From Methanobacteriota archaeon (lineage in GTDB: Archaea > JAADCQ01 > Methanopyri > Methanopyrales > Methanopyraceae): a stretch of 64,000 nucleotides of DNA. Position numbers and translations under genes: made by a program. The notes below the pieces were generated by a model. The model saw only the letters and a list, made by a program, of their open reading frames with translations. It did no database searches and had not been told where the DNA came from. Location of the stretch: contig JAMOPO010000027.1 of assembly GCA_027064425.1 (NCBI GenBank), positions 96,001 through 160,000 of the forward strand, read 5' to 3'. Below are positions 20,396-37,189 of this stretch, in pieces (the first letter of the stretch is position 1; every line of letters begins with the position of its first letter).

Positions 20396-21672
20396 GGGTC
20401 ATCCGAATCCCCGTGCACGGGTTCGTGGAGGTCGACGGAGCCTGCGAGAAGGTGCTCGATTCCCCGGAGGTGCAGCGGCTGCGGCGGGTACGCCAGCTGG
20501 GCCTGGCCGAGCTGGTGTACCCGGGCGCGACGCACACCCGGCTGGAGCACAGCTTAGGGGTGAAGTGCCTCTGCGACCGGGTCCTGGAGATTCACTGGGA
20601 GCGGCTGAGGCGCGACGTCCCGGAGGTCGGCCGGTTCTCCCGCGATTACGTCGAAGAGGTGCTGGGCCTGGCGGGCCTTCTCCACGACGTCGGCCACCCG
20701 CCGTTCTCGCACGTGCCGGAGCCACTGCTGGAGGAGGAGCTGGGGGTCGATCACGAGGACATCGGCGCCGCGGTGGCGCGGGTGGTGCTGGAGCGGGTGG
20801 ACGTGATGGACCCGGAGGCGGTGGTGGAGATCGCGTTCGGGCCGGGTGAGGGTTGGACGCGGCTGCTTCACCAGGTCATCGCCGGGGACCTCGGCGTGGA
20901 CCGGCTGGACTACCTCGTCCGGGACTCGCTGCACGCCGGGGTGGAGTACGGTCGGATCGAGCTGGACCGGGTGCTTCACACGCTGGAGCTGGGCGAGCGG
21001 GTCACGGTGCACGGGAAGGGGGTGGAGGCGGCGGAGTCCGTGCTGGTCGCGCGGTACCACATGTACCGGACGGTGTACTTCCACAAGACCTGCCGGGCCG
21101 GGGACGCGATGCTCCTCCGGGCGATCCGGCTGGCGGCCGACGACGGGCACCTGGACCTGCGCGCCTTCGATCCGAAGCGGCTGCTGAGGAAGGAGGACGC
21201 GATGTCCGCGTTCCTGGAGATGGATGACTGCAAGCTCATGCACGAGCTGTTGGAGCACCCGGAGAGCCGGGAGCTGGTGGAGGGACTTCGCGCGCGTCGG
21301 CTGTACAAGTGCGTGGCCGAGTACAAGGCCTCCGAGGAGCCGGCGCACGGGGAGCTGATGCGGTGGGCGGAGGAGGTGTCGGAGGAGCACCTCGGGGACC
21401 CGAACGGCGTCCTGCTGGACTCGTCGAAGATCGTGCCGTACGATCCCTCCTCGGACGAGGTCATCGTGCGGACCGAGGACGGGGAGGTCCCGCTGTCCGA
21501 GGTGTCGGACCTCGTGCGGACGCTGAGGGAGCGGGCGGAGCGGGAGATCCCCACGCTCCGGGTGTACGTGAGGCCGGAGATTCGGGACGACGAGGAGGTC
21601 GTCCGGAGGATCGTGGAGGACGTGAAGTCCGCGGTCCCGCCGGCCGGGGAGGGTTCGTTACGAACCTCGTAA
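20392..21672 (+). CDS. HD-domain phosphohydrolase (dNTPase/SAMHD1-like)
   Basis: QRLRRVRQLG, HTRLEHSLG, LLHDVGHPPFSH, DRLDYL.RD, MY..VYFH. Confidence 0.92.
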   Translation: MRVIRIPVHGFVEVDGACEKVLDSPEVQRLRRVRQLGLAELVYPGATHTRLEHSLGVKCLCDRVLEIHWERLRRDVPEVGRFSRDYVEEVLGLAGLLHDVGHPPFSHVPEPLLEEELGVDHEDIGAAVARVVLERVDVMDPEAVVEIAFGPGEGWTRLLHQVIAGDLGVDRLDYLVRDSLHAGVEYGRIELDRVLHTLELGERVTVHGKGVEAAESVLVARYHMYRTVYFHKTCRAGDAMLLRAIRLAADDGHLDLRAFDPKRLLRKEDAMSAFLEMDDCKLMHELLEHPESRELVEGLRARRLYKCVAEYKASEEPAHGELMRWAEEVSEEHLGDPNGVLLDSSKIVPYDPSSDEVIVRTEDGEVPLSEVSDLVRTLRERAEREIPTLRVYVRPEIRDDEEVVRRIVEDVKSAVPPAGEGSLRTS

Positions 21673-21677
21673 CAATT
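21655..21677. promoter_or_regulatory. Palindrome GTTACGA-N3-TCGTAAC in the tRNA-Sec 3' trailer
   Basis: Perfect 7-bp inverted repeat; 19/23 identical to 37167-37189; function unknown. Confidence 0.55.
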
Positions 21678-21683
21678 CGGGGG

Positions 21684-21773
21684 CGGCCGCCGCGGGGAAT
21701 TGAACCCCGCGCCCCGTATCGGGGCGCGCCGGATCTGAAGTCCGGCCCGGGGACCACCCCGGTGGCGGCGGCC
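21684..21773 (-). tRNA. selC: tRNA-Sec (UCA)
   Basis: 9-bp acceptor stem GGCCGCCGC/GCGGCGGCC, anticodon arm CCGGA-CTTCAGA-TCCGG, long variable arm, 4-bp T stem with TTCAATT loop, G discriminator. Confidence 0.96.
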
Positions 21774-21843
21774 TGACGGGCGGGCCCGTCCGAACCCGGG
21801 ATAAGACCGGTATTAAGGGGTTTCGCGGGCCGGGGGGAGAGCT

Positions 21844-22488
21844 GTGAACCCGGTGATGCGGATCGTGGAGCTTTACGAGGACCACCCGATCATGGAGCGG
21901 CTGGACCGACGTGAGGACCCGTTCCGCGTCCTCATCCGCACGATCATCTCCCAGCGGACCCGGGACACGGTGACCCGCCGCGTGTCTGAGCGCTTCTTCG
22001 AGCGCTTCGACGGGCCCGAGGACGTGATCGAGGCGGATCTCGAGGAGATCCAGGAGATCCTCCGGGGGGCCGGATTATACCGGCAGAAGGCCCGGTGGAT
22101 CAGGGCGTGCTGCGAGCGGATCGTGAGTGAGGGTATCGACCTTAGCGAGGTGGTCCGCCGCCCGGTCGAGGAGGCCAGGGAGACGCTGCTCGACCTGCCC
22201 GGCGTGGGTCCCAAGACCGCTGACGTGGTCCTGCTGTTCGCCGGTGGGCACGACATCTGCCCGGTGGACGTGCACGTGCGGCGGATCGTCGGGCGGCTGG
22301 GGCTGGTCGACTCCCGGGACTACGACGACGTGCAGCGGGCCGTGCATGAGGCGGTTCCGGAGGGGAAACGAGGAAAAGCTCACCTCGCCCTCATACAGTT
22401 CGGCCGTGAGATATGCAGGTCGGAGCCCAAGTGCGAAGCCTGCCCAGTCCGTCCCCTTTGCCCGACCGGAGGTGGTGAGCGCGGTTGA
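21844..22488 (+). CDS. nth: Endonuclease III
   Basis: HhH LPGVGPKTA, VDVH, C-terminal C-X5-C-X2-C-X5-C FeS motif. Confidence 0.92.
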   Translation: MNPVMRIVELYEDHPIMERLDRREDPFRVLIRTIISQRTRDTVTRRVSERFFERFDGPEDVIEADLEEIQEILRGAGLYRQKARWIRACCERIVSEGIDLSEVVRRPVEEARETLLDLPGVGPKTADVVLLFAGGHDICPVDVHVRRIVGRLGLVDSRDYDDVQRAVHEAVPEGKRGKAHLALIQFGREICRSEPKCEACPVRPLCPTGGGERG

Positions 22489-24971
22489 GCGTGAAGGCCG
22501 TCTACGAGGAGCTCCGGGAGGTCGTGCTCGAGAAGCTGGACAAGGGAGAGGACCCAATACCGCAAATTCTCGGCCAGGACGAGGTCAAAATGCACGTTCT
22601 CTCCGCGCTGATTGCGGGCCGACACGTGCTCATCGAGGGTCCGCCCGGGGTGGGCAAGACCACGCTGGCCCGGGCCATCGCCGACCTGCTGCCGCCGGCC
22701 GAGGCGGTGAAGGGGTGCCCGTTTCACTGTCACCCGGAGGATCCCGTGTGCCCGCTCTGCAAGTCGAAGCCGAAGGACGAGCTCGAGACCGAGGTCATCC
22801 CGGGCCGGGAGCGGTTCGTGCGGATCCAGGGCAGCCCCGACCTAACGCCGGAGGACCTGCTGGGCGACATCGACCCCGTGGCCGCCCTCAAGTACGGGCC
22901 CACCGACCCCCGCGCGTTCACACCGGGCAAGCTGCTGCGAGGTAACCGCGGCGTCGTCTTCTTCGACGAGATCAACCGGTGCCCCGAGAAGCTGCAGAAC
23001 GCGCTCCTTCAGGTTCTGGAGGAGCAGCGGGCCACCATCGCGGGGTACGAGGTGGACTACCCGGCCAACTTCATCATGATCGCGACGATGAACCCGCACG
23101 AGTACGCGGGCACCGAGGAGCTCTCCGAGGTTCTGCTGGACCGCTTCGACACCGTTGAGATGACCTACCCGAAGTCCAAGGAGGTCGAGAAGCAGATCGT
23201 CGTCGAGCGCGGGAAGGACCTGGACGTGGAGGTCCCGGAGCACGTGCTCGAGTTCATCGTTGACCTCGTCAGGGCCACCCGGGAGCACGAGGAGATCGAG
23301 CGGCCGGCGAGCGTCCGGGCCACGATCGGGCTGTACGAGCGGGCCCAGGCCCACGCGGCCCTCGAGGGCCGGTCCGAGGTCGAGATCCAGGACGTCGTGC
23401 AGGTGGCCCCCTCCGTGCTGAAGAAGCGCATCAAGCTGAGCCCACGCGTCCAGCACGTCAAGTCGGAGGAGGAGGTGATCCTGGAGATCATCCGCGAGCT
23501 GCTGGAGGAGAACTACGACATCAAGCTCGAGCAGCTCGACGTCGATCTGGGCGAGGGGGAGGGAAAGGAGGAGGCGGGAAAAGGGAGCCGGGGAAAGGAG
23601 CCTGAGGAGCGGCGCGGGCAGCGGGTGAGGGCTCGCAAGGAGGAGAGTGGGGAGGAGAGTAGTGGGCGGAGCTCCCAGGGCCGATCGAGGGTCCGATCGC
23701 TCGGGTCAACGTCGGCGGCATCGTCCGAGGCCTCGGGCGCGGGCGGCGGGTCCGGGGTCGAGGCGGAAGCCGAGGAAGTCGCCGGGGAGGAGGGTCACCG
23801 TTCGAGCCGCGGCAGGCTGCGTTTCCAGCACCTGACGAAGCGGGATCAGCTGAGGTACGTCGAGGGCGACGAGCGGTACGTGTTCTCGGCCCGGGTGCTC
23901 CGCAGCCTCCTGAACCGGGGAATCGAGTACCTGCGTCCCCATCAGCTCGCGGAGTCGCTGGTCGTGAGCGCGGCTCACATCAAGAGCAAGTACGGGCGCG
24001 AGTTCATCGAGGATATCACCGGGTACGATTACGAGGTGATCGTGCAGCGCCAGCACGACTACTCGTTCATCGACGAGCTCGAGGAGCGCATCCGAGAGCG
24101 TCTCAAGATCCTGGAGGAGCTCGGGTTCATTCGACCCTCCTACCAGGGCGGCGTAAGCATCACGCTGAAGGGCAAGGAGCTGGCGGCCTTCTCCGCGTTG
24201 ATCGAGGAGCTCGAGGCGTTCGAGGGCGAGGAGTTCGGGCACCACGCGTCCAAGCGGCTGAGCGCGCACGGAACGGGGCACCGAGGACACGTCCGCGAGT
24301 ACCGGCGCGGCGATCCGTACAGCAGTATCGACGTGAGGAAGTCCATCCGGACGTCGGTCCGGCGGGGCCGGAAGAAGGTGCTCCCGGAGGACCTTCGAGC
24401 CTGCGATCGGGAGGAGGAGGTCGGTATCGACATCGTCTACGCGATCGACACGTCCGGCAGCATGGCGGGCGACCGGATCGACGCGGCCAAGCGGGCGGCG
24501 ATCGCCCTCACGCACTTCAGCCTCAGGCACCAGGACCGGGTGGGAATCGTTGAGTTCAACTCCAAGGCTCGAGTGGTCACCGACATCACGTCGGACATCG
24601 AGAAGATCATCACGGAGGTGATCTCTCTGAAGCCTGGCGGGGCCACCGACATCGGGGACGCCATCCGCGTGGGCGTGAAGCTGTTCGAGCGGTGCGGGGA
24701 GCGGGACCGGGACTGGCACATGATACTGCTCACGGACGGGGTTCCGACGAAGGGCGAGCCGGACCCGGAGAGCAAGGCCGTGTCCGAGGCGATCGCGGCT
24801 GCCCGGCGCGGCATCACCATCTCCACGATCGGGATCCGGCTGCCCCGGGAGGGCAGGCGCCTCATCGAGCAGATCGCCAGCATCACGGGCGGTCGGTCGT
24901 ACCACATAGCGAGCCCGGAAGAGCTGACGCTGGTCACGCTCAACGAGTACAGGCGGGCGAAGATCAGTTGA
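22485..24971 (+). CDS. Chelatase ChlI/ChlD-like AAA+ ATPase fused to a vWA domain
   Basis: GPPGVGKT, FFDEINR, ATMNP; low-complexity linker; MIDAS DTSGSM, T, TDG. Confidence 0.88.
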   Translation: MSVKAVYEELREVVLEKLDKGEDPIPQILGQDEVKMHVLSALIAGRHVLIEGPPGVGKTTLARAIADLLPPAEAVKGCPFHCHPEDPVCPLCKSKPKDELETEVIPGRERFVRIQGSPDLTPEDLLGDIDPVAALKYGPTDPRAFTPGKLLRGNRGVVFFDEINRCPEKLQNALLQVLEEQRATIAGYEVDYPANFIMIATMNPHEYAGTEELSEVLLDRFDTVEMTYPKSKEVEKQIVVERGKDLDVEVPEHVLEFIVDLVRATREHEEIERPASVRATIGLYERAQAHAALEGRSEVEIQDVVQVAPSVLKKRIKLSPRVQHVKSEEEVILEIIRELLEENYDIKLEQLDVDLGEGEGKEEAGKGSRGKEPEERRGQRVRARKEESGEESSGRSSQGRSRVRSLGSTSAASSEASGAGGGSGVEAEAEEVAGEEGHRSSRGRLRFQHLTKRDQLRYVEGDERYVFSARVLRSLLNRGIEYLRPHQLAESLVVSAAHIKSKYGREFIEDITGYDYEVIVQRQHDYSFIDELEERIRERLKILEELGFIRPSYQGGVSITLKGKELAAFSALIEELEAFEGEEFGHHASKRLSAHGTGHRGHVREYRRGDPYSSIDVRKSIRTSVRRGRKKVLPEDLRACDREEEVGIDIVYAIDTSGSMAGDRIDAAKRAAIALTHFSLRHQDRVGIVEFNSKARVVTDITSDIEKIITEVISLKPGGATDIGDAIRVGVKLFERCGERDRDWHMILLTDGVPTKGEPDPESKAVSEAIAAARRGITISTIGIRLPREGRRLIEQIASITGGRSYHIASPEELTLVTLNEYRRAKIS

Positions 24972-26032
24972 CGGTGGTAGGGGTCGTCGCGGCCTCTGAG
25001 CTGGCGGAGCGGGAGGTCCTGAGGGAGGCCGAGCGGCGACTGAGGGAGCTGGGGCTGGACGGTGTCGAGACCGTCACCGACCCGGAGGATGTGCCCGACG
25101 ATCCCGCGGTCGTCCTGGTCGCCACCGGTGGAACGGAGGACATCTTGGAGTCGATGATGGAGGAGTGTCCGGCCCTGCTCCCACTGTACTGGCCGTCCTA
25201 CAACTCGCTCGCCGCCGCGGTCGAGGTCGGCCTGTCGCCGGTGAGCGTGGAGGGTTGCGACGCCGTGGTCGAAGCCTTCCGGCGGCTCGTTGAGCGGAGA
25301 GTGCTCGTGCTGGAAGGCAAGTGCAGGTGGGTTCGGAGCGAGGAGCCGGATGAGTTGCCCTACCTGAACGTGGCCACCGTGAACGTGGACGACCTCGGTG
25401 AGGTCGAGCCCGCGATCCGGAAGGTTAAGCGCCTGCTTTCCTCGGCGGGCGTCGACCCGGGGAGCTTGGATGAGGAGTTCCTGGAGCTGGCGGGACGGTT
25501 GCACGCGCTGGCCGAACGTGAGGGCGCGGACGTGATCACGGGCGACTGCTTTGGCCTGTACGAGGAGTACGGCGCGGTGCCCTGTCTCTACTTCTCGGCT
25601 CGGACCGGGTACTGCTGCGAGGGGGACGCGACCGCGCTCCTTACCGTGCTGGCCTGTCGGGATCAGCCGTTCGTCGCCAACGTGGTGGAGCTCGCCGAGG
25701 ACCGGGTGCGGCTGGCTCACTGCGCCTGCCCGGTGGAGCTCGTGGACGACCCCCGGCCCTGCGATCACATGGAGACCGGGGCGCCCCACGCGGTCCGGGG
25801 CACCGTCCGTTCGGGCGAGCTCGGGCTGGTCAGGTTCCCGGACGTGTGGCGCGTCGAGGCCGTGGAGACGGAGTGGCGGGAGGATCAGTGCCGGGTCCAG
25901 GCGGAGGTGGTCGTCGGCGAGGGGTTCAGGCCCCGGGGGAACCACCACTGCCTGGTGCGGGTGAAGGAGGCTGAGGTCCTCGAGCGGCTGTTCTCGTCGG
26001 TGGTACTGTCGCGGTCGCCGTCAGCCGAGTGA
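24968..26032 (+). CDS. L-fucose/L-arabinose isomerase-like protein
   Basis: TGGTE, NSLAAA.E, CEGD, LAHC, CR.Q, GNHH motifs. Confidence 0.7.
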   Translation: MTVVGVVAASELAEREVLREAERRLRELGLDGVETVTDPEDVPDDPAVVLVATGGTEDILESMMEECPALLPLYWPSYNSLAAAVEVGLSPVSVEGCDAVVEAFRRLVERRVLVLEGKCRWVRSEEPDELPYLNVATVNVDDLGEVEPAIRKVKRLLSSAGVDPGSLDEEFLELAGRLHALAEREGADVITGDCFGLYEEYGAVPCLYFSARTGYCCEGDATALLTVLACRDQPFVANVVELAEDRVRLAHCACPVELVDDPRPCDHMETGAPHAVRGTVRSGELGLVRFPDVWRVEAVETEWREDQCRVQAEVVVGEGFRPRGNHHCLVRVKEAEVLERLFSSVVLSRSPSAE

Positions 26033-27643
26033 CCCTCGCATGCGACCCATCTCGAGCAGGAGGTCGCGGACGAAGGGGTTGACCTCCTCGACGCCGCCCT
26101 CCGCGACCACGTATCGCAGGTAGGGTTCCAGCGTATGGACCAGGTTCTGGTACTCGAAGTCGGACGGTGGCTCGAGGTCGAGGTACTCGACGCAGTACTC
26201 CAGGTCCGCGTTCACCATGGACACGCCGGAGGTGGGCAGGACGGACCCGGCCGTCTCCAGGAAGGTGTGCTGGACCGCGAACTGCAGGTCCTCGCGGAGC
26301 ATCGGGTACAGCCGGGAGATCACGGCGTCCAGGGCGTCCTCGCCCAGGCGCTCCTCCACCTCGGCGAGTCCCCGGCCGGTGCCGATGAGCTCGGGCGGCA
26401 TCCCAACGGTGTAACACGCGCCGGTGAACTTGATCGCTCGTGGCAGCTCCGGCAGCTTCTCGACGCGCATTCGCCGGAGCTCTCGGTAGAGCTCGCGCCC
26501 CACGTCGTCGTTCACCTGCTTGCAGAGCTTCCCGACCTTGTCCGGCTCGGGGATGTCCCGGGCGTAGCCGACGGGTCCCTTACGGGCGAGCCGGTCCCGG
26601 GTGTTGGGGATTAGGTCCGAGATGATGTTGAGCGTGCCGATGCACCGGTAGAAGACGCTCAAGTAGTGCTTCACGAAGATCCCGGTCGCGAGGATCAGGT
26701 ACTCGACCTCGTCGTCTGAGAGCTCGATCGGCTCGTTGGCGGCGAGGTCGTTGATTCGGCGGATGGACCGGATGACCTCGTCCTCGTCGTGGTCGTACCG
26801 GAACCCGGACTGGATGGTGTACGTGGCCGCGCCGGCGTACTCCTCGGTGAAGTCGTCCTCCGCGCCCGGCTTGATGTGTCCGCGGAAGGGCAGGCAGCCG
26901 CCGCCCAGGATGGGGGCCATCGGGATCCCGAGCTCGTCCGCGAGCTCGTAAACCTGGAAGATCGCGTACTTGCAGGCCAGCACGGCCGGGACGTGACCGT
27001 AGGACAGGGCCGGATCGGAGCGCCCGATAAAGACTCGGAGGTAGCTGACGTCCATCCCGATGTCGCGCATCCCGTTGATGTACCCTTTCAGGATGCTGCG
27101 GATGGTCAGGAGCTCGGGCACCTCCTCGATGAGCGGGATGATGCGCAGGTGGCCCGCGCTCAGCGGGATGTCCAGCTCGCGGGAGGCGAACCGCCGGGCG
27201 TAGGATATGCGGTCCGCGGTGTCCAGCAGCTCCTCCGGGGAGGAGGTCATCGGGTGGACGACCTCGAAGATTCCTCGAGCGTCGGGATCCTCCTTAAGCA
27301 GCTCCGAGTTGGCCTCCATCACGCCCAGCAGCGCCTGGATCTGGCGGAGGACGTTCTCCTTCGACGCGCTCGGCACGCGGACGATCACGAACTTATCCTC
27401 GCCGACCTCGACGCCCGCCTCGTGCAGCTCCATGAGCACCTGGATGGGCTGCAGGTAGGGCGTGAGCTTGCCCTCGAAGTCGATCATGTACTCCTCAGCG
27501 TCGTACTTCGTGAGACACTCGACGGCCTCCTCGGGCTCCTCCTGAACCCGCACGGACTTGGTCGCGTCCGGGTGTTGCGTCGCGAGCGTCCGCGCGATCC
27601 TCGCCTCGCGTACCCTCTCCACCTCTCTCACGACCTCGTTCAA
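26021..27643 (-). CDS. ppcA: Archaeal-type phosphoenolpyruvate carboxylase
   Basis: ATQHPD, DFEGK, RSDPALSYG, GCLPFRG, LPRAIKF, R.SLG end. Confidence 0.96.
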   Translation of the reverse strand: MNEVVREVERVREARIARTLATQHPDATKSVRVQEEPEEAVECLTKYDAEEYMIDFEGKLTPYLQPIQVLMELHEAGVEVGEDKFVIVRVPSASKENVLRQIQALLGVMEANSELLKEDPDARGIFEVVHPMTSSPEELLDTADRISYARRFASRELDIPLSAGHLRIIPLIEEVPELLTIRSILKGYINGMRDIGMDVSYLRVFIGRSDPALSYGHVPAVLACKYAIFQVYELADELGIPMAPILGGGCLPFRGHIKPGAEDDFTEEYAGAATYTIQSGFRYDHDEDEVIRSIRRINDLAANEPIELSDDEVEYLILATGIFVKHYLSVFYRCIGTLNIISDLIPNTRDRLARKGPVGYARDIPEPDKVGKLCKQVNDDVGRELYRELRRMRVEKLPELPRAIKFTGACYTVGMPPELIGTGRGLAEVEERLGEDALDAVISRLYPMLREDLQFAVQHTFLETAGSVLPTSGVSMVNADLEYCVEYLDLEPPSDFEYQNLVHTLEPYLRYVVAEGGVEEVNPFVRDLLLEMGRMRGSLG

Positions 27644-27671
27644 GGCGCGAGGGCCCGATGGGGAGGGCGGG

Positions 27672-30574: not shown

Positions 30575-30589
30575 TGCGCTTCCCCCTCC

Positions 30590-31225: not shown

Positions 31226-31267
31226 CTTTTGTAACCCCCGTCCCGCCGGGTGGCGGCGGGGCTGAGC

Positions 31268-31591
31268 ATGGAGGACCTGGAGGAGGCGCTAGAGACGCTG
31301 GTTCGGTACGGCAGGAAGGAGGAGCTCGAGGAGCTGCCGGGCGATCTCTCCAGCGTGGCCAAGCAGATGCAGAATATCATCAACACGGGGGGCAGGTACG
31401 AGATAGTGGTCGAGGAGGGCGAGGAGGGGGCCAAGGTGACGGTCTATACCTTGCGCCGCTCGCGAAGGCTCGGCACCTCCAAGTACCCGGGCTGGGAGCG
31501 GACGAAGAAGATCGCCGAGCTGGAGCTGAGCGAGGAGGAGGTGGAGGAGGTGATGGAGCTGTCGGAGAAGGTCGCGGAGCGAGTCTCCTAG
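31268..31591 (+). CDS. Hypothetical protein
   Basis: Acidic ORF with typical codon usage between rnhB and the creatininase gene. Confidence 0.6.
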   Translation: MEDLEEALETLVRYGRKEELEELPGDLSSVAKQMQNIINTGGRYEIVVEEGEEGAKVTVYTLRRSRRLGTSKYPGWERTKKIAELELSEEEVEEVMELSEKVAERVS

Positions 31592-32262
31592 CCCCTCTCT
31601 CGCAGCTCCTCCACGATCTCCGAGACCCGCCGCACCACCTCCCGGAATATCCTCCTTCCCTTCTCGCGGTCCGCCGGCCTGGGGTCACCCTTCACGCCCG
31701 TCTCCGAGATCTCGTGGTAATCCGGGTACTCCCACACCTCCGTCCTACGACCGTCCTTGACCAGCTCGTCCTCGCGGACCAGCTCAGGGTACAGGTACAT
31801 CATCACCGAGGTCTCCAGCTCGTCCGCGTGCCCGCCCCAGTCGGTCTCCAGCACGTCCGTGGGCGCCAGCCTCCACCAGCTGACCCAGTAAAACCGCTCC
31901 TCTTCCTCCGCGACGGTTCCCAGCGCGGGCTCGTTGCCACCGTGCCCGTTGATCGCCAGCGTGGCCGCGGCCCCGTGGTGCAGGAACGACCGATGGATGT
32001 CCCGCAGCAGCCTCACCATGGTCTCCGTCCGCAGGGACACGGTCCCGGGGAACCCCATGTGATGCCGGGAGACGCCGTAGGGCACCGCCGGGTACCAGGG
32101 CGCCCCGGTCCTGCGCGACACCTCCCGGCAGATCGCGGTCGCGATGAGGTGGTCCGTGCCCAGCGGTAGGTGCGGCCCGTGCTGCTCCGTGCTCCCCACG
32201 GGCAGCAGCACGACCTCGCCCTCCAGGTCCACCTCCGGGTGCGGAAGCTTCCGAGCCTCCAC
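31588..32262 (-). CDS. Creatininase-family amidohydrolase (ArfB-like candidate)
   Basis: GSTEQHGPHLPLGTD, NGHGGN, HADELETS. Confidence 0.88.
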   Translation of the reverse strand: MEARKLPHPEVDLEGEVVLLPVGSTEQHGPHLPLGTDHLIATAICREVSRRTGAPWYPAVPYGVSRHHMGFPGTVSLRTETMVRLLRDIHRSFLHHGAAATLAINGHGGNEPALGTVAEEEERFYWVSWWRLAPTDVLETDWGGHADELETSVMMYLYPELVREDELVKDGRRTEVWEYPDYHEISETGVKGDPRPADREKGRRIFREVVRRVSEIVEELRERG

Positions 32263-33069
32263 CTAGGCCTCCCCCAGCATCTCCTTGAGCAGCTCCTTCG
32301 CCTCGCCCAGATCCAGCGGGGGCTCGTCCACGCCGAGCTCCCGGAGCAGCTCCACGTGCTCGGGCGGCTTCAGCCCCGCGGACCGCATCAGGTCCACGTC
32401 GGTGAGCACCTCCTCCGGGGTACCGTCGGCGATCACGTCTCCCCGCTTGATCACCACCACTCGGTCCGCCAGCTCCGCCGCCACGTCCACGTCGAACGTC
32501 GTGAGCACCAGGGTGAACCCCATCCGCTCCTTCAGCTCGGAGATCAGCCGCACGAACCTCCTCGTCGCCCGGTAGTCCAGCCCGGAGGTCGGCTCGTCGA
32601 GGATCAGCAGGTCGGGCTCCGTGACCACGGCGCCCGCGAGCGCCACGAGCTTCTTCTGTCCCTCGCTGAGAAACTGCGGCGGGCGGTCCTTCAGGTGCTC
32701 GATGCCCAGATCCCTCAGCACCCTCTCCGCCCGCTCGAACGCCTCCTCCCGAGGCACGCCGCGGTTCACCAGGCCGAAGGCCACGTCCTCCAGGACGCTG
32801 GGCATGATCAGCTGGTCGTCCACGTTCTGGAACACGACTCCCAGCCGCTCCCTAACCCGCGCCGACTCCTCCGGCAGCTCGTGCCCCAGCACCTTGATGC
32901 GACCGTCCTTGGGTTTCAAAAGGCCCAACATGTGGTTCAGCAGCGTCGTCTTGCCCGACCCGTTGGGCCCGAGGACGACCACCGACTCCCTCTCCCGGAT
33001 CTTCAGCGTCAGGCCGCACACGGACCGGGTACCGTCCGGGTACTCGTGCTCCAGGCACTCGATCTTCAC
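32263..33069 (-). CDS. cbiO: ECF Co/Ni transporter ATPase
   Basis: GPNGSGKTT, VFQN.DDQL, LSEGQKK, LDEPTSGLD. Confidence 0.9.
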   Translation of the reverse strand: MKIECLEHEYPDGTRSVCGLTLKIRERESVVVLGPNGSGKTTLLNHMLGLLKPKDGRIKVLGHELPEESARVRERLGVVFQNVDDQLIMPSVLEDVAFGLVNRGVPREEAFERAERVLRDLGIEHLKDRPPQFLSEGQKKLVALAGAVVTEPDLLILDEPTSGLDYRATRRFVRLISELKERMGFTLVLTTFDVDVAAELADRVVVIKRGDVIADGTPEEVLTDVDLMRSAGLKPPEHVELLRELGVDEPPLDLGEAKELLKEMLGEA

Positions 33070-33077
33070 CGCGTAAC

Positions 33078-33783
33078 CTATCCCGGCCCACCCCCCAGGA
33101 GGAGCGCGCAGGTGACGGAGAGCAGCGTGAGCGTCGCCCACGCGGCGTCCGCCGCGGACAGGCTCGGGGGTCGCAGCGGCCGCACCCTGCCGCGGACCCC
33201 GCGGACCTCTATACTGGCCCTCAACCGCCGCGCGGAGGCGTAACCCCGGGCGACCAGCGACGCCACGATCACCCCGAGCAGCCGGGGTCGGATCCTCGCG
33301 CCGCGCACGCGTGCCGACCTGATGATGCCCTCAAGGTCGCGCATCAGCCCGTAGAAGGACCGGTGAAACAGCAGGGCCATCTCCGCGAGAGGACCGGGCA
33401 TCAATCGCGCCAGCGAGGACCACAAGGCGTTGAAAGGGGGTGGTCAGGGTCACGAGCAGCGTCGCCAGCAGGGCGGTGAAGCCGCGGGCCGCGTAGAGCG
33501 CGACGTCCCTCGCGGGGACGCCAGTGGGTAGCATCAGTACCAGAATCGCCCCTAGGAAGCCCGCGGGGAGGGCCGCGAGCCTCAGCAGCACGCGCCACGG
33601 AATCCGGGCCGCCAGCGCCCCCGCCAGGTAGGGGAGGGAGGGGATCAGGGCGCTCCAGGGGTCTCGCACGACGAGCAGGGCGACAAGGGTCATCGCGAGG
33701 CAGCCCAGCTTGGTCACCGGGTCGACCCGGTGAAGGACGGTGTCCGCCGCCAGCGACCACTCCAGCACTTCCTCCACGGTCAA
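33078..33783 (-). pseudogene. cbiQ: ECF transmembrane component CbiQ, split by an apparent +1 frameshift near 33433-33440
   Basis: N-terminal LHRVDP..KL in one frame and ...RG C-terminal half in another; removing one base in CCCCCTTT restores TTPFNALWSSL. Confidence 0.7.
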
Positions 33784-33786
33784 CGG

Positions 33787-34365
33787 CTAGCGCACCCATT
33801 CCGGCATCATCCTCTCCAGCGCCACCACGGCGTGGGGCGTGATCAGCGCCTCGAGCACCGCCACAAGGACCCAGTTCGGCGTCAGCGTGACCAAGAAGTA
33901 GGTTGCGGAACGGCCGGTGGCCCAGGCGACGACGAACGCCGTGACGAACGCCGTGATCGTCAGGACGACGAAGGTGGCGATCCCCGCCGACACCAGCGGG
34001 CTCAGTACCGCTCTCAGCCCCCGGTACAGCGCCCACACTCCCGCGCACTCGGACCAGTTCAGCAGCGTGTTGAGGCCGACGATGGTGATCCCGCCGTGCC
34101 CCAGCAGCGCGCACGCCAGGTTCACCAGGAAGACCACCGGGGCCGACGCCCAGGGGCCCAGGAGTATTCCTATCAATCCCACCAGGCTAACGTGCGCGTG
34201 GAGCAGCGGGATCTGCATCGCGGCGAACGATAAGCCGGCCAGGATGCCGGCCGGGACGACCTTCTCCCGGGGCGTCCTGTAGGCGCCCAGGGCGACGAGC
34301 GCTCCCGCCGCGGCGTAGAGGACCGCGCACCACTTAATCGGGATCACGCCGTCGGGCAGGTGGAC
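33787..34365 (-). CDS. cbiM: ECF Co/Ni substrate component CbiM/NikM
   Basis: HLPDG upstream of the track start, H......GILLGP, LLGHGGIT..G.N; true start codon unclear. Confidence 0.85.
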   Translation of the reverse strand, partial: VHLPDGVIPIKWCAVLYAAAGALVALGAYRTPREKVVPAGILAGLSFAAMQIPLLHAHVSLVGLIGILLGPWASAPVVFLVNLACALLGHGGITIVGLNTLLNWSECAGVWALYRGLRAVLSPLVSAGIATFVVLTITAFVTAFVVAWATGRSATYFLVTLTPNWVLVAVLEALITPHAVVALERMMPEWVR

Positions 34366-34418
34366 GTGCGCTAACCCGACTCCCCCCGAACGCGCTAGAT
34401 GAGGACCATCAAAGCTGC

Positions 34419-34440
34419 TAATACCGTCCGCGTATTAAAT
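34419..34440. promoter_or_regulatory. Palindrome TAATAC-N7-GTATTA overlapping a TATA-like TATTAAAT between cbiM and vhuG
   Basis: Perfect 6-bp inverted repeat in an AT-rich divergent intergenic region. Confidence 0.5.
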
Positions 34441-34474
34441 TCAACGCGCCGGACCGCCCGGGGACGCGCTCTCC

Positions 34475-35386
34475 ATGGGAAAGGCAACCGTGGCGACCGC
34501 GCAGCTGTCGTCCTGCGTGGGCTGTCACGTATCGCTGCTGGACCTGCACGAGCGGCTGCTTGACCTGGTGGAGGACGCCATCGACATCAAGTACTGCTAC
34601 GTGCTGGTGGACCAAAAGGAGATCCCAGAGGAGGTCGACGTGGCGCTCATTGAGGGCAGCATTCGGAACGAGGAGGACCTGGAGGTGGCGGAGGAGCTCC
34701 GGGAGGCGGCGGAGGTCGTGGTGGCGGTGGGCACGTGCGCCTGCTTCGGCGGCGTGCACGGGCTGGCCAACCTCTTCGACCGCGAGGAGCTGCTCAAGTG
34801 GGTGTACGAGGAGTCTCACAGCACGGACGACGAGGGCGAGACGCCCAGCGAGATCGTCCCGGAGCTCTTCGAGCGCGTGAGGCCGCTCGGCGAGGTCATC
34901 GACGTCGACTACACGGTCCCGGGGTGCCCGCCTAAGCCGGACGCCATCGCGGAGGTGGTCACGGCCATCCTGGAGGACCGGGAGCCGGAGCTTCCGAGAA
35001 CCAACCTCTGCGAGGAGTGCCCGAGGGAGAAGGAGAACAAGCCCATCGAGGAGCTGAAGCTCCGGACCGGGCAGGGTAAGCCGGACCCGGACAAGTGCCT
35101 GCTGGAGCAGGGATACCCGTGCATGGGCCCGGCCACGGTGGCCGGCTGCGGGGCGGCGTGCCCGTCGCGGGGACTGCCGTGCCGAGGCTGCAACGGGCCG
35201 ACGCGGGAGGCGGCCGACCAGGGCGCCGCGTTCCTGGACGCGATCGCCTCCGTGTCCTTCGAGGCGGACGTGGACGTGGAGGAGCTCCTGGACGACCTCG
35301 TGGACCTGCCCGGACGACTCTACATGTTCTCCATGGCCGCCTCGCTCCTGAAGGGACGCCGGGACGTGATCGGCGGGGGGAGGTAG
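34475..35386 (+). CDS. vhuG: F420-non-reducing [NiFeSe] hydrogenase small subunit
   Basis: SSCVGCH.SLLDLHE, GTCACFGG, PGCPP, CLLEQG.PCMGPAT. Confidence 0.93.
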   Translation: MGKATVATAQLSSCVGCHVSLLDLHERLLDLVEDAIDIKYCYVLVDQKEIPEEVDVALIEGSIRNEEDLEVAEELREAAEVVVAVGTCACFGGVHGLANLFDREELLKWVYEESHSTDDEGETPSEIVPELFERVRPLGEVIDVDYTVPGCPPKPDAIAEVVTAILEDREPELPRTNLCEECPREKENKPIEELKLRTGQGKPDPDKCLLEQGYPCMGPATVAGCGAACPSRGLPCRGCNGPTREAADQGAAFLDAIASVSFEADVDVEELLDDLVDLPGRLYMFSMAASLLKGRRDVIGGGR

Positions 35387-35387
35387 G

Positions 35388-36695
35388 GTGGCGGAGATTA
35401 AGATCCACCCGCTGACGAGGGTGGAGGGTCACGGAGAGGTCGTCATCGAGGTTGAGGACGGCGAGATCAAGGACGTCAAGTTCGCCATCCTGGCCGTCCG
35501 CGGCTTCGAGAAGTTCATCCAGGGTCGACCGGCGGAGGACGTCCCGTACATCGTGTCCCGGATCTGCGGCATCTGCCAGACCGCGCACCACCTGGCGGCC
35601 TGCAAGGCGGTGGACGGGTGCTTCGGCGTCGAGCCGCCCGAGGGAGGCCACAAGATCCGCTGGCTGATGCACCTGGGTAACATGATCCACAGCCACGCCC
35701 TGCACTTCTACTTCCTGGCCGCTCCGGACTACGTGATCGGCCCGGACGCCGATCCGCTGCAGCGGAACGTGATCCAGCTGGTGAAGGAGAACCCGGAGCT
35801 GGGCAAGCTGGCGATCGAGCTCCGCAAGTTCGGCCAGGACATCGTTGAGGCGACGGGAGGCAAGGCGATCCATCCGGTGTCCGGCGTCCCGGGAGGCGTT
35901 TCCGCGCCGGTGGACGAGGAGGACCGGGACGAGCTGCTCGACCGCGCGGAGGAGATGGTGGAGAAGGCCTACGAGGGTGCCAAGGCCGGGATCGAGGCCA
36001 TCAAGGAGACGCTGGATGAGTACAAGGAGAAGCACGACCTCGACCTGCTGGAGACGCTGGGCAACATCGAGACGTACCACATGGGCCTCGTGGCGGACGG
36101 GAACAGGCACGAGTTTTACGACGGTGAGGTCCGCGTCGTGGACCCGGAGGGCAACGAGTTCACGAAGTTCAAGCCGGAGGAGTACCTGGACGTGATCGCC
36201 GAGCGGTCCATCGAGTACTCGTACGTCAAGCACCCGTACCTGAAGGAGGTCGGGTACCCGGACGGCATCTACCGCGTCGGGCCGGGCGCCCGGCTGAACG
36301 TGTGCGAGGAGATGAAGACGGACCGGGCGCAGGAGCTCTACGAGGAGTACGTCGACGAGTTCGGCGAGTGCGTGAACTACTCGCTCACGATCAACTGGGC
36401 CCGGCTGATCGAGCTCGTGGCGGCGTGCGAGGAGGCCAAGCAGCTGCTCGAGGACGACGTGATCACCGAGGAGGATGAGTGCAAGGAGGACTACGAGCCG
36501 CAGGAGGGTGAGGGCGTCGGCATCGTCGAGGCCCCGCGAGGCACGCTGATCCACCACTACAAGACGGACGAGGAGGGCCGGATCACCGAGGCCAACATGA
36601 TCGTCGCCACGACCCACAACGTGCCCGCGATCGAGATGGCGCTGCGCGACGCCGCGAAGAAGCTTGAGGACGAGATCGTCAAACTGGCCGAATAG
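35388..36695 (+). CDS. vhuA: F420-non-reducing hydrogenase large subunit (N-terminal part; C-terminal motif supplied by VhuU)
   Basis: TRVEGHG, SRICGIC, EAPRGTL.HHY, IVATTHN; no DPCxxCxxH at its end. Confidence 0.93.
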   Translation: MAEIKIHPLTRVEGHGEVVIEVEDGEIKDVKFAILAVRGFEKFIQGRPAEDVPYIVSRICGICQTAHHLAACKAVDGCFGVEPPEGGHKIRWLMHLGNMIHSHALHFYFLAAPDYVIGPDADPLQRNVIQLVKENPELGKLAIELRKFGQDIVEATGGKAIHPVSGVPGGVSAPVDEEDRDELLDRAEEMVEKAYEGAKAGIEAIKETLDEYKEKHDLDLLETLGNIETYHMGLVADGNRHEFYDGEVRVVDPEGNEFTKFKPEEYLDVIAERSIEYSYVKHPYLKEVGYPDGIYRVGPGARLNVCEEMKTDRAQELYEEYVDEFGECVNYSLTINWARLIELVAACEEAKQLLEDDVITEEDECKEDYEPQEGEGVGIVEAPRGTLIHHYKTDEEGRITEANMIVATTHNVPAIEMALRDAAKKLEDEIVKLAE

Positions 36696-36722
36696 GTCGA
36701 CTGAATGGGGGATCGGGTCCCG

Positions 36723-36848
36723 ATGGCCGAGAAGAAGGACGTGCTGAACTACCTCGAGATGATCATCCGGAGCTACGACATCTGACTGTCGTGCGCGGCC
36801 CACGCGCTGGAGAAGGTCAGGATCCGGGTCAAGAAGCGCGGAGACTAA
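36723..36848 (+). CDS. vhuU: Selenoprotein VhuU (Sec at TGA 36783-36785)
   Basis: MAEKKDVLNYLEMIIRSYDI-U-LSCAAHALEKVRIRVKKRGD; follows vhuA; SECIS downstream. Confidence 0.93.
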
Positions 36849-36865
36849 CGCCCCCGGCCGATGAG

Positions 36866-36897
36866 GGCCCGGGGGAACCCTAACGGGACCCCGGGCC
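36866..36897 (+). promoter_or_regulatory. Archaeal SECIS element
   Basis: GGCCCGGGG-GAA-CCC-TAAC-GGG-A-CCCCGGGCC: 9-bp GC stem, GAA/A internal loop, 3 GC pairs and apical loop. Confidence 0.9.
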
Positions 36898-37167
36898 GGA
36901 TGGTCCGGGCCTCCCCCACCTCCACGCTATCCCGTACGCGAGCAGCGCGACCAGCGTCTCCAGCGGGAGTCGGTACAGACCCACCTTCTCGATCATGACC
37001 GCGTCCACGGTGGCCGAGCCGAGCACACCGGGCAGGATGGTCAGCACCCGGAACCACCGGGGAAGCCCATACCGGAGTGAGAACCAGGTGAAGGCCGCGA
37101 ACCCGGCGACCGCGAGCGCGTTCAGCACGCAGATTCTAGCGAAGACGTCCAACCGGACACCCCTCAT
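36880..37167 (-). CDS. Small hypothetical membrane protein
   Basis: About 95 aa with three hydrophobic segments; start assumed at ATG 37167. Confidence 0.5.
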   Translation of the reverse strand: MRGVRLDVFARICVLNALAVAGFAAFTWFSLRYGLPRWFRVLTILPGVLGSATVDAVMIEKVGLYRLPLETLVALLAYGIAWRWGRPGPSGPGSR

Positions 37168-37189
37168 CGTTACGAATTTCATAACGATT
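37167..37189. promoter_or_regulatory. Palindrome GTTACGA-N3-TCATAAC in the tRNA-Gln 3' trailer
   Basis: Extended inverted repeat ATCGTTA...TAACGAT; near-copy of 21655-21677. Confidence 0.55.

What the first reader, a model, noticed from the sequence alone, without database searches (positions are those of the whole stretch)
21655..37189. Same AT-rich palindrome immediately downstream of both tRNA genes
Seen: TCGTTACGAACCTCGTAACAATT (21655-21677) and TCGTTACGAATTTCATAACGATT (37167-37189) are 19/23 identical, and all four differences are transitions. Both contain GTTACGA-N3-TCRTAAC in the same orientation, with the palindrome core 10-12 nt past the discriminator base of tRNA-Sec and tRNA-Gln. 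The tRNAs are unrelated and 15.5 kb apart, and the background is very GC-rich. I found no other full copy by eye. Inference: a dedicated cis-element for stable-RNA 3' ends, either a terminator or roadblock protein site, a pre-tRNA trailer hairpin for processing or editing, or a recombinase site. It is unlike the usual archaeal oligo-T terminators, and I know of no description of it.
Basis: partly seen in the sequence, partly recalled or inferred. Interest (0 to 1): 0.8.

Follow-up and report, generated by a model that had tools for sequence, protein, structure and literature searches.

The report
Palindromic 3'-end signal of Methanopyrus genes
A 25-base palindrome sits just past the end of every tRNA gene, of the other stable-RNA genes and of some protein genes in this heat-loving methanogen genus, and most likely marks where transcripts end, in a way not yet described for archaea.

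Summary
Both window sites are copies of a 25-bp dyad, AATCGTTAYGAR-N-YTCRTAACGATT. It starts 5-8 nt after the CCA of every credible tRNA gene: 38 in this genome, 26/26 and 27/27 in two sister species. It also follows 5S, SRP, RNase P, 16S and 23S RNA genes and 43 protein-gene stops.

The genome holds about 101 strong copies, 60 of the 63 non-tRNA ones intergenic. They favour convergent gaps (17/74) over divergent ones (3/177). All 6 genomes of the genus carry the motif; 15 other archaeal families searched do not.

So it is a general 3'-end element, not one dedicated to stable RNA. Its tRNA association was already published for M. kandleri AV19 in 2017 (PMC5217627), with function untested.

The two arms vary independently, with no covariation. 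The spacing is fixed, lone half-sites are not enriched, and the hairpin is predicted unfolded at 85-98 C. In RNA contigs of an AV19-like genome, RNA 3' ends lie 5-6 nt upstream of the palindrome, on both sides.

My best reading (0.45) is a bidirectional terminator read as double-stranded DNA by a dimeric protein. The main rival is an RNA-level processing signal (0.3).

The parts
21653..21677 (.). Palindrome copy 1 (25 bp). Read on the tRNA (minus) strand it is AATTGTTACGAGGTTCGTAACGAAC.
   Evidence: 39.0 bits on the minus strand. It starts 4 nt after the ARAGORN end of tRNA-SeC, which has no encoded CCA.
21682..21773 (-). tRNA-SeC (anticodon TCA), the unit whose 3' end faces copy 1.
   Evidence: ARAGORN. 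One search shows a TATA-like box upstream.
20392..21672 (+). HD-domain protein gene, convergent with tRNA-SeC. Its stop codon TAA (21670-21672) lies inside the palindrome.
   Evidence: My gene call. Pfam HD_assoc_2 1.7e-30 and HD 7e-09. The ortholog in G002 also ends inside a palindrome, at -16 versus -20 nt.
37165..37189 (.). Palindrome copy 2 (25 bp). Read on the tRNA (minus) strand it is AATCGTTATGAAATTCGTAACGATG.
   Evidence: 44.4 bits on the minus strand, with a 5-nt spacer (CCGGC) after the encoded CCA.
37195..37270 (-). tRNA-Gln (anticodon TTG), the unit whose 3' end faces copy 2.
36880..37167 (-). Small conserved membrane-protein ORF directly downstream of copy 2. Its ATG at 37167-37165 overlaps the last 3 nt of the palindrome. 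The start conserved with G002 is more likely the TTG at 37152-37150. There is no room for a promoter of its own.
   Evidence: A homologous open frame follows tRNA-Gln in G002. No Pfam family.

Best explanation
The two window sites are copies of a genus-wide (Methanopyrus) 25-bp dyad-symmetric element that defines RNA 3' ends in both directions.

Proposed mechanism:
- A dimeric protein reads the element as double-stranded DNA, each subunit recognising one AATCGTTAY(GAR) half-site.
- RNA polymerase coming from either side is stopped, so transcripts end about 5-6 nt before the edge of the element.
- For tRNA genes that point coincides with, or lies 0-3 nt past, the encoded CCA.
- Termination is not always complete. 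Some copies lie inside operons or directly before a co-directional gene.

What is shown: the anatomy, distribution, 3'-end bias, conservation, lack of arm covariation, and a few mapped RNA ends. What is inferred: the DNA-level reading, the protein, and termination as opposed to cleavage.
For: 1. Ubiquity behind RNA genes.
- 32 of 35 ARAGORN calls in G000 carry the element. The other 3 lack a TATA box and a CCA and lie in coding-like sequence.
- 6 more copies follow tRNA-like 3' ends that ARAGORN missed, recognised by eye. One of these was confirmed by Rfam.
- 26 of 26 tRNAs in G002 and 27 of 27 in G001 carry it.
- By Rfam boundaries it lies 11 nt after 5S, 15 nt after SRP RNA, 23 nt after RNase P RNA, 84 nt after 16S and 134 nt after 23S.

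2. 3'-end bias.
- Of 63 non-tRNA copies scoring >=20 bits, 60 are intergenic although 88.6% of the genome is called coding.
- They occupy 17 of 74 convergent gaps, 30 of 352 tandem gaps and 3 of 177 divergent gaps of >=25 nt.
- The distance to a facing stop codon is tight, with many at 7-40 nt. The distance to a facing start codon is scattered.
- The five most enriched 7-mers within 40 nt after stop codons genome-wide are all pieces of the element, at 8.5-11.6-fold.

3. Canonical signals are scarce. Only 39 of 1511 genes have T5+ within 60 nt after the stop.

4. Selection on position.
- In 13 of 19 G002 motif rows with an identifiable flanking ortholog, G000 has a copy at the same gene end.
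- Distances often match: AtpA 19/19 nt, L7Ae 30/30, DHQS 29/31.
- The genome GC of these species ranges from about 58% to 68%.

5. DNA-type symmetry.
- Across 101 copies, Watson-Crick pairing at mirrored variable positions is 443, against 440.9+-8.0 for shuffled partners (p=0.42).
- In tRNA trailers, sense-strand G.U pairs (17) do not exceed C.A pairs (22).
- The CGTTAY-RTAACG spacer is N7 in 43 of 44 cases.
- 97 of 109 strict half-sites lie inside palindromes. Only 12 are lone, against about 28 expected from composition.

6. A hairpin is implausible on its own. All 38 G000 and all 26 G002 tRNA copies are predicted unfolded at 98 C, and 32 of 38 G000 and 24 of 26 G002 copies at 85 C. Some orthologs, such as G002 tRNA-Gln, have three arm mismatches.

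7. RNA ends, from contigs of 4 coded RNA runs (at most two samples, one study) laid on a 20-kb stretch of the AV19-like genome G002.
- RNase P RNA: A-runs absent from the genome mark an end at 4091 in 4 of 4 runs, 5 nt before the 25-mer.
- A surface-protein mRNA: contigs stop at 936 in 3 of 4 runs, two of them with 22 unmatched letters. That is 6 nt before the 25-mer and 15 nt after the stop codon.
- A convergent mRNA ends at 615, 5 nt before the palindrome whose other side faces tRNA-Gly. One run shows this, with 24 unmatched letters.

8. The published RNA-seq study lists tRNA intermediates with 5' leaders but none with 3' trailers, and it puts 3' processing first (PMC3695527, section 13 read).

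9. The spacer from the CCA to the element is never below 5 nt: 5-8 nt in 31, 21 and 22 tRNAs of the three species, with one outlier.
Against: 1. Polarity. In tRNA trailers the half-site nearer the tRNA fits the consensus better than the far half in 25 vs 1, 21 vs 1 and 21 vs 1 cases. A symmetric dimer on DNA does not predict this. An RNA-level or direction-dependent role does.

2. Copies where full termination would hurt.
- One lies between mcrB and mcrD in an mcrBDCGA cluster, 18 nt before the next start.
- One lies directly before the conserved small ORF after tRNA-Gln.
- About 11 of 30 tandem copies leave <=30 nt to the next predicted start. Those starts come from my own crude gene caller.

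3. Geometry. By recalled figures, stalled polymerases usually stop 12 nt or more before a roadblock. Here the ends are only 5-6 nt before the element, or 6-9 nt before its first conserved bases.

4. One contig (1 run) begins at the exact centre of the tRNA-Ile palindrome and runs 365 nt downstream. This could be a cleavage product or read-through.

5. The RNA ends rest on assembled contigs of one study over one 20-kb stretch. The tool warns that contigs cannot in general show ends. Reading the A/T runs as library tails is my inference.

6. A full-length though divergent RNase Z homolog is present (187 bits, cut-off 293). tRNA 3' processing may therefore exist regardless.

7. No binding protein is identified.
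Confidence: 0.45

Rival explanations
1. RNA-level signal. The element is transcribed, and a protein such as an endonuclease recognises it in the RNA, either as a protein-stabilised hairpin or as the single-stranded word AAUCGUUAY. The RNA is cut about 5 nt upstream. This would release tRNAs, RNase P RNA and mRNAs from longer or read-through transcripts. It is a punctuation or 3'-maturation signal, as the 2017 authors speculated.
For: - The transcript-proximal half is better conserved: 25/1, 21/1 and 21/1.
- Some copies lie inside co-directional units where cleavage makes more sense than termination: mcrB|mcrD and tRNA-Gln|small ORF.
- The distance from RNA end to element is fixed at 5-6 nt on both strands.
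- One contig starts at the palindrome centre.
- A 9-10-bp hairpin is possible at 37 C for both window copies: -10.8 and -14.3 kcal/mol in a 43-nt context, z -1.08 and -2.79.
- The speculation in PMC5217627.
Against: - There is no covariation between the arms: 443 vs 440.9+-8.0. C.A mismatches on the sense strand are not avoided.
- The 25-mers are predicted unfolded at 98 C in 38/38 and 26/26 tRNA copies. Arms are poorly paired in G002, with a mean of -4.2 kcal/mol at 37 C.
- If only the first half mattered, lone half-sites should occur and the spacing need not be fixed. In fact 97 of 109 half-sites are paired and the spacer is N7 in 43 of 44.
- No RNA containing the palindrome joined to an upstream gene was among the contig pieces listed. 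That list was cut, with 260 pieces not shown.
Confidence: 0.3
2. The element is a protein-binding DNA site with a role other than ending transcripts. One example is a boundary or recruitment site for a nucleoid protein or topoisomerase downstream of heavily transcribed units, to handle supercoiling or to insulate neighbours. It may also affect polymerase passage.
For: - It has the symmetry, fixed spacing and independently varying arms of a DNA site.
- It sits behind the most heavily transcribed genes: tRNA, rRNA, 5S, thermosome, McrB, AtpA and ribosomal proteins.
- It is restricted to one genus, which has unusual DNA-topology enzymes. That topoisomerase V is confined to Methanopyrus is recalled, not tested here.
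Against: - The 5-8-nt register with the CCA end and the 5-6-nt register with other RNA ends would be unexplained.
- Ordinary genes carry it too: TruD, macro domain, PdxS, Topo VI-A.
- Most genes lack it.
Confidence: 0.12
3. The element is a dispersed selfish or neutral palindromic repeat of the REP, BIME or MITE type that accumulates in permissive intergenic DNA and has no function of its own.
For: There are about 100 dispersed intergenic imperfect palindromes, sometimes two or three close together: C3:131777/131794, C2:2999/3123/3337, and G002:720742/720803.
Against: - It follows every tRNA in three species in a fixed 5-8-nt register.
- Positions are orthologous in 13 of 19 comparisons.
- It is nearly absent from divergent gaps, which are the longest: 3 of 177.
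- No longer repeat unit surrounds the 25-mer at most sites.
Confidence: 0.03
4. The element is an integrase or recombinase attachment site associated with tRNA genes.
For: By recall, tRNA 3' regions are classical integration targets. The site is a palindrome with a short central spacer.
Against: - It is present at all tRNAs and at 63 non-tRNA places.
- It lies outside the tRNA body.
- Positions are conserved across species.
- No direct repeats or inserted elements were seen next to the copies inspected. I ran no systematic integrase search.
Confidence: 0.01

Closest known systems
CGTTA(N)9TAACG 'tRNA downstream' motif of M. kandleri AV19 (PMC5217627, BMC Genomics 2017; passages read)
   Same: It is the same element: the same core, the same place (~10 bp after tRNA genes), and the same genus restriction ('specific to M. 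kandleri').
   Different: - That paper found it computationally, at about half of the tRNA genes of one strain, and speculated on a 3'-maturation enzyme site.
- Here it follows all credible tRNAs in three species and also 5S, SRP, RNase P and rRNA genes and 43 protein-gene ends.
- I could not see that paper's supplementary tables, so I cannot exclude that non-tRNA copies are listed there.
Protein-roadblock terminators of eukaryotic RNA polymerase I and mitochondria: Reb1/Nsi1, TTF-I 'Sal box', mTERF1 (recalled, no call)
   Same: A sequence-specific DNA site lies just downstream of stable-RNA genes. RNA ends fall a short fixed distance upstream. At the mRNA copies a pyrimidine-rich stretch precedes the site (pyrimidine fraction 0.67 vs 0.51).
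   Different: - Those sites are asymmetric and polar. This one is a dyad and seems to work from both sides.
- No binding protein is known here.
- The distance to the RNA end is shorter (5-6 nt).
- The host is an archaeon, where no such terminator is described in the library searched.
Archaeal intrinsic oligo-dT terminators (e.g. PMC2253867, search listing/abstract only)
   Same: Both are placed directly after genes and are AT-rich relative to the genome.
   Different: - The element has no T run; TT is the longest.
- The conserved letters include invariant C and G.
- T5+ follows only 39 of 1511 stops in this genome.
Bacterial rho-independent terminators and REP/BIME palindromes (recalled)
   Same: Both are inverted repeats in 3' intergenic DNA, and the bidirectional use between convergent genes is similar.
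   Different: - Those are defined by structure (covarying GC-rich stem plus U tract) or are mobile families.
- Here the sequence is conserved rather than the pairing, and the stem is AT-rich.
- RNA ends lie upstream of the repeat, and positions are orthologous.
FttA/aCPSF1-dependent termination in archaea (recalled)
   Same: It could be the release or cleavage activity acting at these sites. A ~650-700-aa metallo-beta-lactamase frame consistent with aCPSF1 shows up as a weak secondary hit.
   Different: By recall, the known signal is a U-rich tract with cleavage downstream of it. A conserved palindrome with ends upstream is not part of that picture.

Membership tests
Published M. kandleri tRNA-downstream motif CGTTA(N)9TAACG | Core CGTTA-N9-TAACG about 10 bp after the tRNA gene end | tested here: met
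   Window copy 2 and 27 of the 32 G000 tRNA trailers match it exactly. Window copy 1 has the TGTTA variant. The core starts 7-11 nt after the tRNA end.
Published M. kandleri tRNA-downstream motif CGTTA(N)9TAACG | Restricted to Methanopyrus | tested here: met
   - 6 of 6 genomes of the genus carry it, and 0 of 15 other archaeal families searched.
- An exact 23-mer scan of 185,579 species genomes found 7 stretches. Five are in Methanopyri/Methanobacteriota MAG records and two are single hits in bacteria.
Archaeal intrinsic oligo-dT terminator | Run of about 5 or more T on the non-template strand at the RNA end | tested here: not met
   The longest T run in the consensus is 2. T5+ lies within 60 nt of only 39 of 1511 stops.
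Hairpin (rho-independent type) terminator or 3' stabiliser | Stem maintained by compensatory changes | tested here: not met
   Watson-Crick pairs number 443, against 440.9+-8.0 expected from independent arms, over 101 copies. Per-position p values are 0.05-1.0.
Hairpin (rho-independent type) terminator or 3' stabiliser | RNA 3' end downstream of a stable stem | tested here: not met
   The mapped ends are 5-6 nt upstream of the repeat. The 25-mers are predicted unfolded at 98 C in 38/38 and 26/26 tRNA copies. This is an extrapolated energy model that ignores the cell's salt.
Protein-roadblock terminator (Reb1/TTF-I/mTERF kind) | Conserved sequence-specific duplex site just downstream of the RNA end, at a fixed distance | tested here: met
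   the spacer is 5-8 nt after the CCA. RNase P RNA and two mRNAs end 5-6 nt before the element. This rests on few cases, on contigs, and on one study.
Protein-roadblock terminator (Reb1/TTF-I/mTERF kind) | A protein that binds the site and halts the polymerase | not testable with these tools
   Needs a pull-down or EMSA and in vitro transcription.
REP/MITE-like mobile palindrome | Copy positions variable between relatives, with no fixed register to genes | tested here: not met
   13 of 19 orthologous gene ends are shared between G002 and G000. The register to the CCA is fixed.
tRNA-linked integrase att site | Site overlaps the tRNA 3' part and bounds an inserted element | tested here: not met
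   The site lies outside all tRNAs. It is present at every tRNA and at 63 other places.
CRISPR repeat | Regular arrays of repeats with unique spacers | tested here: not met
   Copies are single, or at most 2-3 at irregular distances.

The most novel reading that the evidence does not exclude
Methanopyrus uses a sequence-specific, factor-bound, bidirectional terminator, which would be the first of its kind in Archaea and an analogue of the Reb1/TTF-I/mTERF roadblocks.

The factor stops RNA polymerase so precisely that tRNA primary transcripts end at, or within 0-3 nt of, the encoded CCA. Stable-RNA 3' ends would then be made largely by termination rather than by trimming. The genus has almost no oligo-T terminators and lacks the transcript-cleavage factor TFS.
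Probability: 0.3. Interest if true: 0.85.

Novelty: new variant of a known kind. Interest (0 to 1): 0.6.

Why it matters
How archaea end transcription is only partly understood: oligo-T tracts, FttA/aCPSF1 and Eta (recalled). This genus is GC-rich, grows at 84-110 C (PMC5217627 passage), has almost no T-tracts after its genes and lacks TFS.

It nevertheless has one sharply defined 25-bp signal behind every stable-RNA gene and behind many highly expressed protein genes. That gives a concrete, mutable handle on a possibly new termination or 3'-end mechanism.

It also gives a way to fish for the responsible factor, because the bait is a single short duplex. In practice the element can be used to annotate transcript ends, and it flags tRNAs that tRNA finders miss. 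Six such tRNAs were found that way here.

Tried and rejected
- Chance. Rejected: 0.02 matches are expected in the window, and the reversed-pattern controls gave 0 in all genomes.

- 'Only stable RNAs'. Rejected by gene context and Pfam.

- Promoter or operator of the downstream gene. Rejected: copies occupy 3 of 177 divergent gaps against 17 of 74 convergent gaps, and distances to facing starts are scattered. tRNA genes have ordinary TATA boxes upstream.

- 'No tRNase Z, hence termination makes the 3' end'. Not supported: a full-length, divergent RNase Z-like frame exists in G000, G001 and G002.

- Two independent one-way signals placed back to back. Disfavoured by the fixed N7 spacing and the lack of lone half-sites.

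- Link to the topoisomerase V paper that holds the strings CGTTA and TAACG. It is a coincidence of crystallisation oligonucleotides.

- C/D-box sRNA association. My regular expression found only 7 candidates, 1 of them followed by a palindrome. That is too few to say anything. One clear C/D-like unit precedes C2:2999, and a weak sR60 hit lies near C15:345596.

- RNA contigs. Parts of the 20-kb stretch without cover, and the absence from the listed pieces of contigs bridging a gene and its palindrome, are not evidence. 260 pieces were not shown.

- Supplementary tables of PMC5217627 and PMC3695527 were not opened, since supplements are closed. They may list further copies or 3'-end read counts.

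- Literature searches for an earlier or fuller description found only PMC5217627. Subscription journals are not in that library.

Full report
**What is in the window.** They are 19/23 identical and all four differences are transitions. Both tRNAs are on the minus strand (tRNA-SeC 21682-21773, tRNA-Gln 37195-37270), so the motifs lie 3' of them. The strict pattern occurs twice in the window against 0.02 expected. The unit is 25 bp long: 21653-21677 and 37165-37189.

Copy 1 also contains the stop codon (21670-21672) of a convergent HD-domain gene. Copy 2 abuts a small membrane-protein ORF that is conserved in a sister species and has no room for its own promoter.

**Genome-wide picture.** The window's genome (G000) has 57 contigs, 1.54 Mb and 67.8% GC.
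- ARAGORN gives 35 tRNA calls. 32 have a TATA box upstream and, except tRNA-SeC, an encoded CCA, and all 32 carry the element.
- The 3 calls without it look like false calls in coding sequence.
- A PWM built from these 32 trailers finds 112 loci at >=12 bits, in a bimodal score distribution. 101 loci score >=20 bits.
- Six further copies follow tRNA-like 3' ends that ARAGORN missed (by eye; one confirmed by Rfam).
- The consensus is AATCGTTAYGAR-N-YTCRTAACGATT.
- The spacer from the CCA to the first A is 5 nt in 23 tRNAs, 6 in 1, 7 in 5 and 8 in 2. tRNA-SeC has no encoded CCA.

**Not only tRNAs.** By Rfam boundaries the element lies 11 nt after 5S rRNA, 15 nt after SRP RNA and 23 nt after RNase P RNA. 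It lies 84 nt after the 16S 3' end, with a second copy further on, and 134 nt after the 23S 3' end.

I called genes with my own codon-usage caller: 1546 genes, 88.6% coding. On those calls:
- 60 of the 63 non-tRNA copies are intergenic.
- They occupy 17 of 74 convergent, 30 of 352 tandem and 3 of 177 divergent gaps of >=25 nt.
- 37 of the 60 have a protein-gene stop within 60 nt. Because convergent sites face two genes, that amounts to 43 gene ends.
- The 3' UTR before the element is short and pyrimidine-rich (0.67 vs 0.51). It often holds a CACGC box: 13 of 43, against 104 of 1512 for all genes.

I scanned 40 of these 43 proteins against Pfam. I left out three short or doubtful ORFs: C2:875-1165, C26:42723-42887 and C29:382-612.
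- The set includes thermosome, AtpA, McrB, ribosomal proteins S10, S15, L7Ae and L32e, EF-1beta, rubrerythrin, polyferredoxin and FrhB-like.
- It also includes ordinary enzymes: NrdD, TruD, PdxS, DHQS-II, Topo VI-A, a macro-domain protein and others.
- Ten have no Pfam family.

The most enriched 7-mers after stop codons genome-wide are pieces of the element. T5+ tracts follow only 39 of 1511 stops.

**Relatives.** The strict pattern is present in 6 of 6 genomes of the genus and in 0 of 15 other archaeal families searched. Reversed-pattern controls gave 0.
- In G002 (one contig, 1.69 Mb; ~61% GC over the fetched loci), 26 of 26 distinct ARAGORN tRNAs carry AAT[CT]GTTAY-N7-RTAAC[GA]WT. A looser pattern has 44 sites there and 0 in the control.
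- In G001 (~58% GC over the fetched loci), 27 of 27 tRNAs carry it.
- Of 19 G002 motif rows with an identifiable flanking ortholog, 13 have a copy at the same gene end in G000, often at the same distance. A fourteenth (C27:217017) lies 88 nt from its gene, beyond my 80-nt cut-off.
- An exact 23-mer scan of 185,579 species genomes returned 7 stretches. Five are in Methanopyri/Methanobacteriota MAG records and two are single bacterial hits.

**Prior art.** PMC5217627 (2017) reports CGTTA(N)9TAACG about 10 bp downstream of about half of the tRNA genes of M. kandleri AV19. It calls the motif specific to that organism and speculates on a 3'-maturation enzyme signal (passages read). No other description turned up in five full-text searches.

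The RNA-seq paper on AV19 does not mention the motif. It does list 5'-leader intermediates but no 3'-trailer intermediates, and it puts 3' processing first (section 13 read).

**DNA site or RNA hairpin?**
- Over 101 copies, Watson-Crick pairing at mirrored variable positions equals that of shuffled partners: 443 vs 440.9+-8.0, p=0.42.
- In tRNA trailers read on the sense strand, G.U pairs (17) do not exceed C.A pairs (22). Position 8:16 gives CG 16, CA 7, TA 6, TG 5, CT 4.
- The spacing is fixed, with N7 between CGTTAY and RTAACG in 43 of 44 cases.
- Strict half-sites lie inside palindromes in 97 of 109 cases. The 12 lone ones are fewer than the ~28 expected from composition.
- With ViennaRNA energies, all 38 G000 and all 26 G002 tRNA copies are unfolded at 98 C, and 32/38 and 24/26 at 85 C. 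This is an extrapolation that ignores the cell's salt and any proteins.
- At 37 C the two window copies can form 9-10-bp stems.

These points favour recognition of two half-sites as sequence, as by a dimer on duplex DNA.

Against a purely symmetric reading, the half nearer the tRNA fits the consensus better in 25 vs 1, 21 vs 1 and 21 vs 1 tRNAs of the three species. At one-sided protein-gene copies the bias is weak, 16 vs 10.

**Where RNAs end.** Four coded RNA runs (at most two samples, one study; size-fractionated, 2013; kept as contigs) hold the AV19-like sequence. I laid them on L035 = G002:36500-56400 and read the sequence. Runs of 19-25 A, or of T on the other side, that are absent from the genome mark RNA 3' ends. 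I read them as library tails, which is an inference.

| RNA | End in L035 | Support | Position relative to the 25-mer |
|---|---|---|---|
| tRNA-Ala | 15123 | CCA end | 5-nt spacer after the CCA |
| tRNA-Ile | 15311/15313 | CCA end | 5-nt spacer after the CCA |
| Intron-containing tRNA | 18723 | CCA end | 6-nt spacer after the CCA |
| ~325-nt RNA whose G000 counterpart is RNase P RNA | 4091 | 4 of 4 runs | 5 nt before it |
| mRNA of a secreted, anchored protein (stop 952-954) | 936 | contigs stop there in 3 of 4 runs, two with 22 unmatched letters | 6 nt before it |
| Plus-strand mRNA convergent with tRNA-Gly | 615 | 1 run, 24 unmatched letters; two other runs stop at 602 and 604 | 5 nt before the palindrome that faces tRNA-Gly on its other side |

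One contig starts at the centre of the tRNA-Ile palindrome and runs 365 nt into the next gene region. The evidence is thin: contigs, one study, one 20-kb stretch, and a piece list that was cut. It is consistent, though: stable RNA ends lie just upstream of the element, on both sides, and do not include it.

**Context of the transcription machinery.**
- The TFS zinc ribbon (PF01096) is not found in G000, G001 or G002, all ~99% complete. It is found in 2 of 2 other archaea searched and in 4 archaeal controls. This agrees with the review statement in PMC7289017 (passage read).
- A full-length but divergent RNase Z-like frame is present: 187 bits against a cut-off of 293.

**Reading.** The element is a genus-specific, bidirectional 3'-end signal. 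I put 0.45 on a DNA-level, dimer-bound terminator. This explains the symmetry, the fixed spacing, the independent arms, the thermal argument, the ends upstream on both sides, the lower limit of 5 nt to the CCA, and the missing 3' trailers.

I put 0.3 on an RNA-level cleavage or processing signal. This explains the polarity, the intra-operon copies such as mcrB|mcrD and tRNA-Gln|ORF, and the contig starting at the dyad centre. Smaller weights go to a non-terminating DNA-topology or boundary site (0.12), a selfish repeat (0.03) and an att site (0.01).

The element's existence behind tRNAs is already in print. Its full scope and the mechanistic constraints above are, as far as my searches reach, not.

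Noticed in passing
G000 C2:514, C2:3123, C13:2061, C46:129, C48:891 (outside the window): A conserved box, CAGCAAYCAACTTATRCGATGAGCTCGC, lies upstream of a palindrome copy at five loci on small contigs, separated from it by about 55 variable GC-rich nt. It looks like a family of small transcription units with a shared promoter-like start, or the end of a repeated element. Rfam found nothing there.
   Followed up: partly
G000, 3' UTRs of 43 protein genes; e.g. C15:42883-42915, C26:19972-20002: Between the stop codon and the palindrome the sense strand is C/pyrimidine-rich (0.67 vs 0.51). It often carries CYCACGCCCC. CACGC occurs in 13 of 43 of these UTRs, against 104 of 1512 for all genes.
   Followed up: partly
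G000 whole genome: Oligo-T tracts are rare after genes. T5+ occurs within 60 nt of the stop in 39 of 1511 genes, and T4+ in 92.
   Followed up: yes
G000, G001, G002: No TFS zinc ribbon (PF01096) is found in the three Methanopyrus genomes searched, although it is present in the other archaea searched. The RNase Z homolog is full-length but far below the family cut-off.
   Followed up: partly
G000 C15:145874, C15:250588, C57:86033; and C5:15712-15822, C15:~183650, C15:~204600, C15:~289800, C27:~32050, C57:~59000: Three ARAGORN tRNA calls lack TATA, CCA and palindrome and are probably false. Six tRNA-like 3' ends, probably intron-containing tRNAs, were missed by ARAGORN and turned up only through the palindrome.
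   Followed up: partly
G000, upstream of the tRNA genes (listing): tRNA genes have canonical TATA boxes about 30-40 nt upstream. They also share a short conserved leader, YGGAGGC-like, directly before the mature 5' end.
   Followed up: no
window 36880-37167 (minus strand): A ~90-aa hydrophobic ORF follows tRNA-Gln with no promoter space. It is conserved after tRNA-Gln in G002 and ends in ...GRPGPSGPGSR in both. It is probably expressed by read-through from the tRNA promoter.
   Followed up: partly
G000 C26:18637-23889: This is an mcrBDCGA cluster by gene sizes; only McrB was checked with Pfam. A strong palindrome lies between mcrB and the next gene, and a weak one (17.0 bits, C26:23944) lies 54 nt after the last gene.
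   Followed up: partly
G000 C3:131777/131794; C5:15594/15679; C2:2999/3123/3337; G002:720742/720803: Palindromes sometimes come in twos or threes, 17-200 nt apart. Examples are between convergent genes, behind one tRNA, or flanking C/D-box-like sRNAs.
   Followed up: no
window 644-668: A weak PWM hit (17.6 bits, TTTCGTTTTGGAGAGCTTAACGTTC) lies inside what reads as minus-strand coding sequence. It is probably not a functional copy.
   Followed up: partly
G000 consensus half-site: In G000 each arm is itself nearly palindromic (TCGT-W-ACGA), so the element can also be read as two 9-bp dyads 12 bp apart. In G001 and G002 the inner GA/TC is much less conserved.
   Followed up: no
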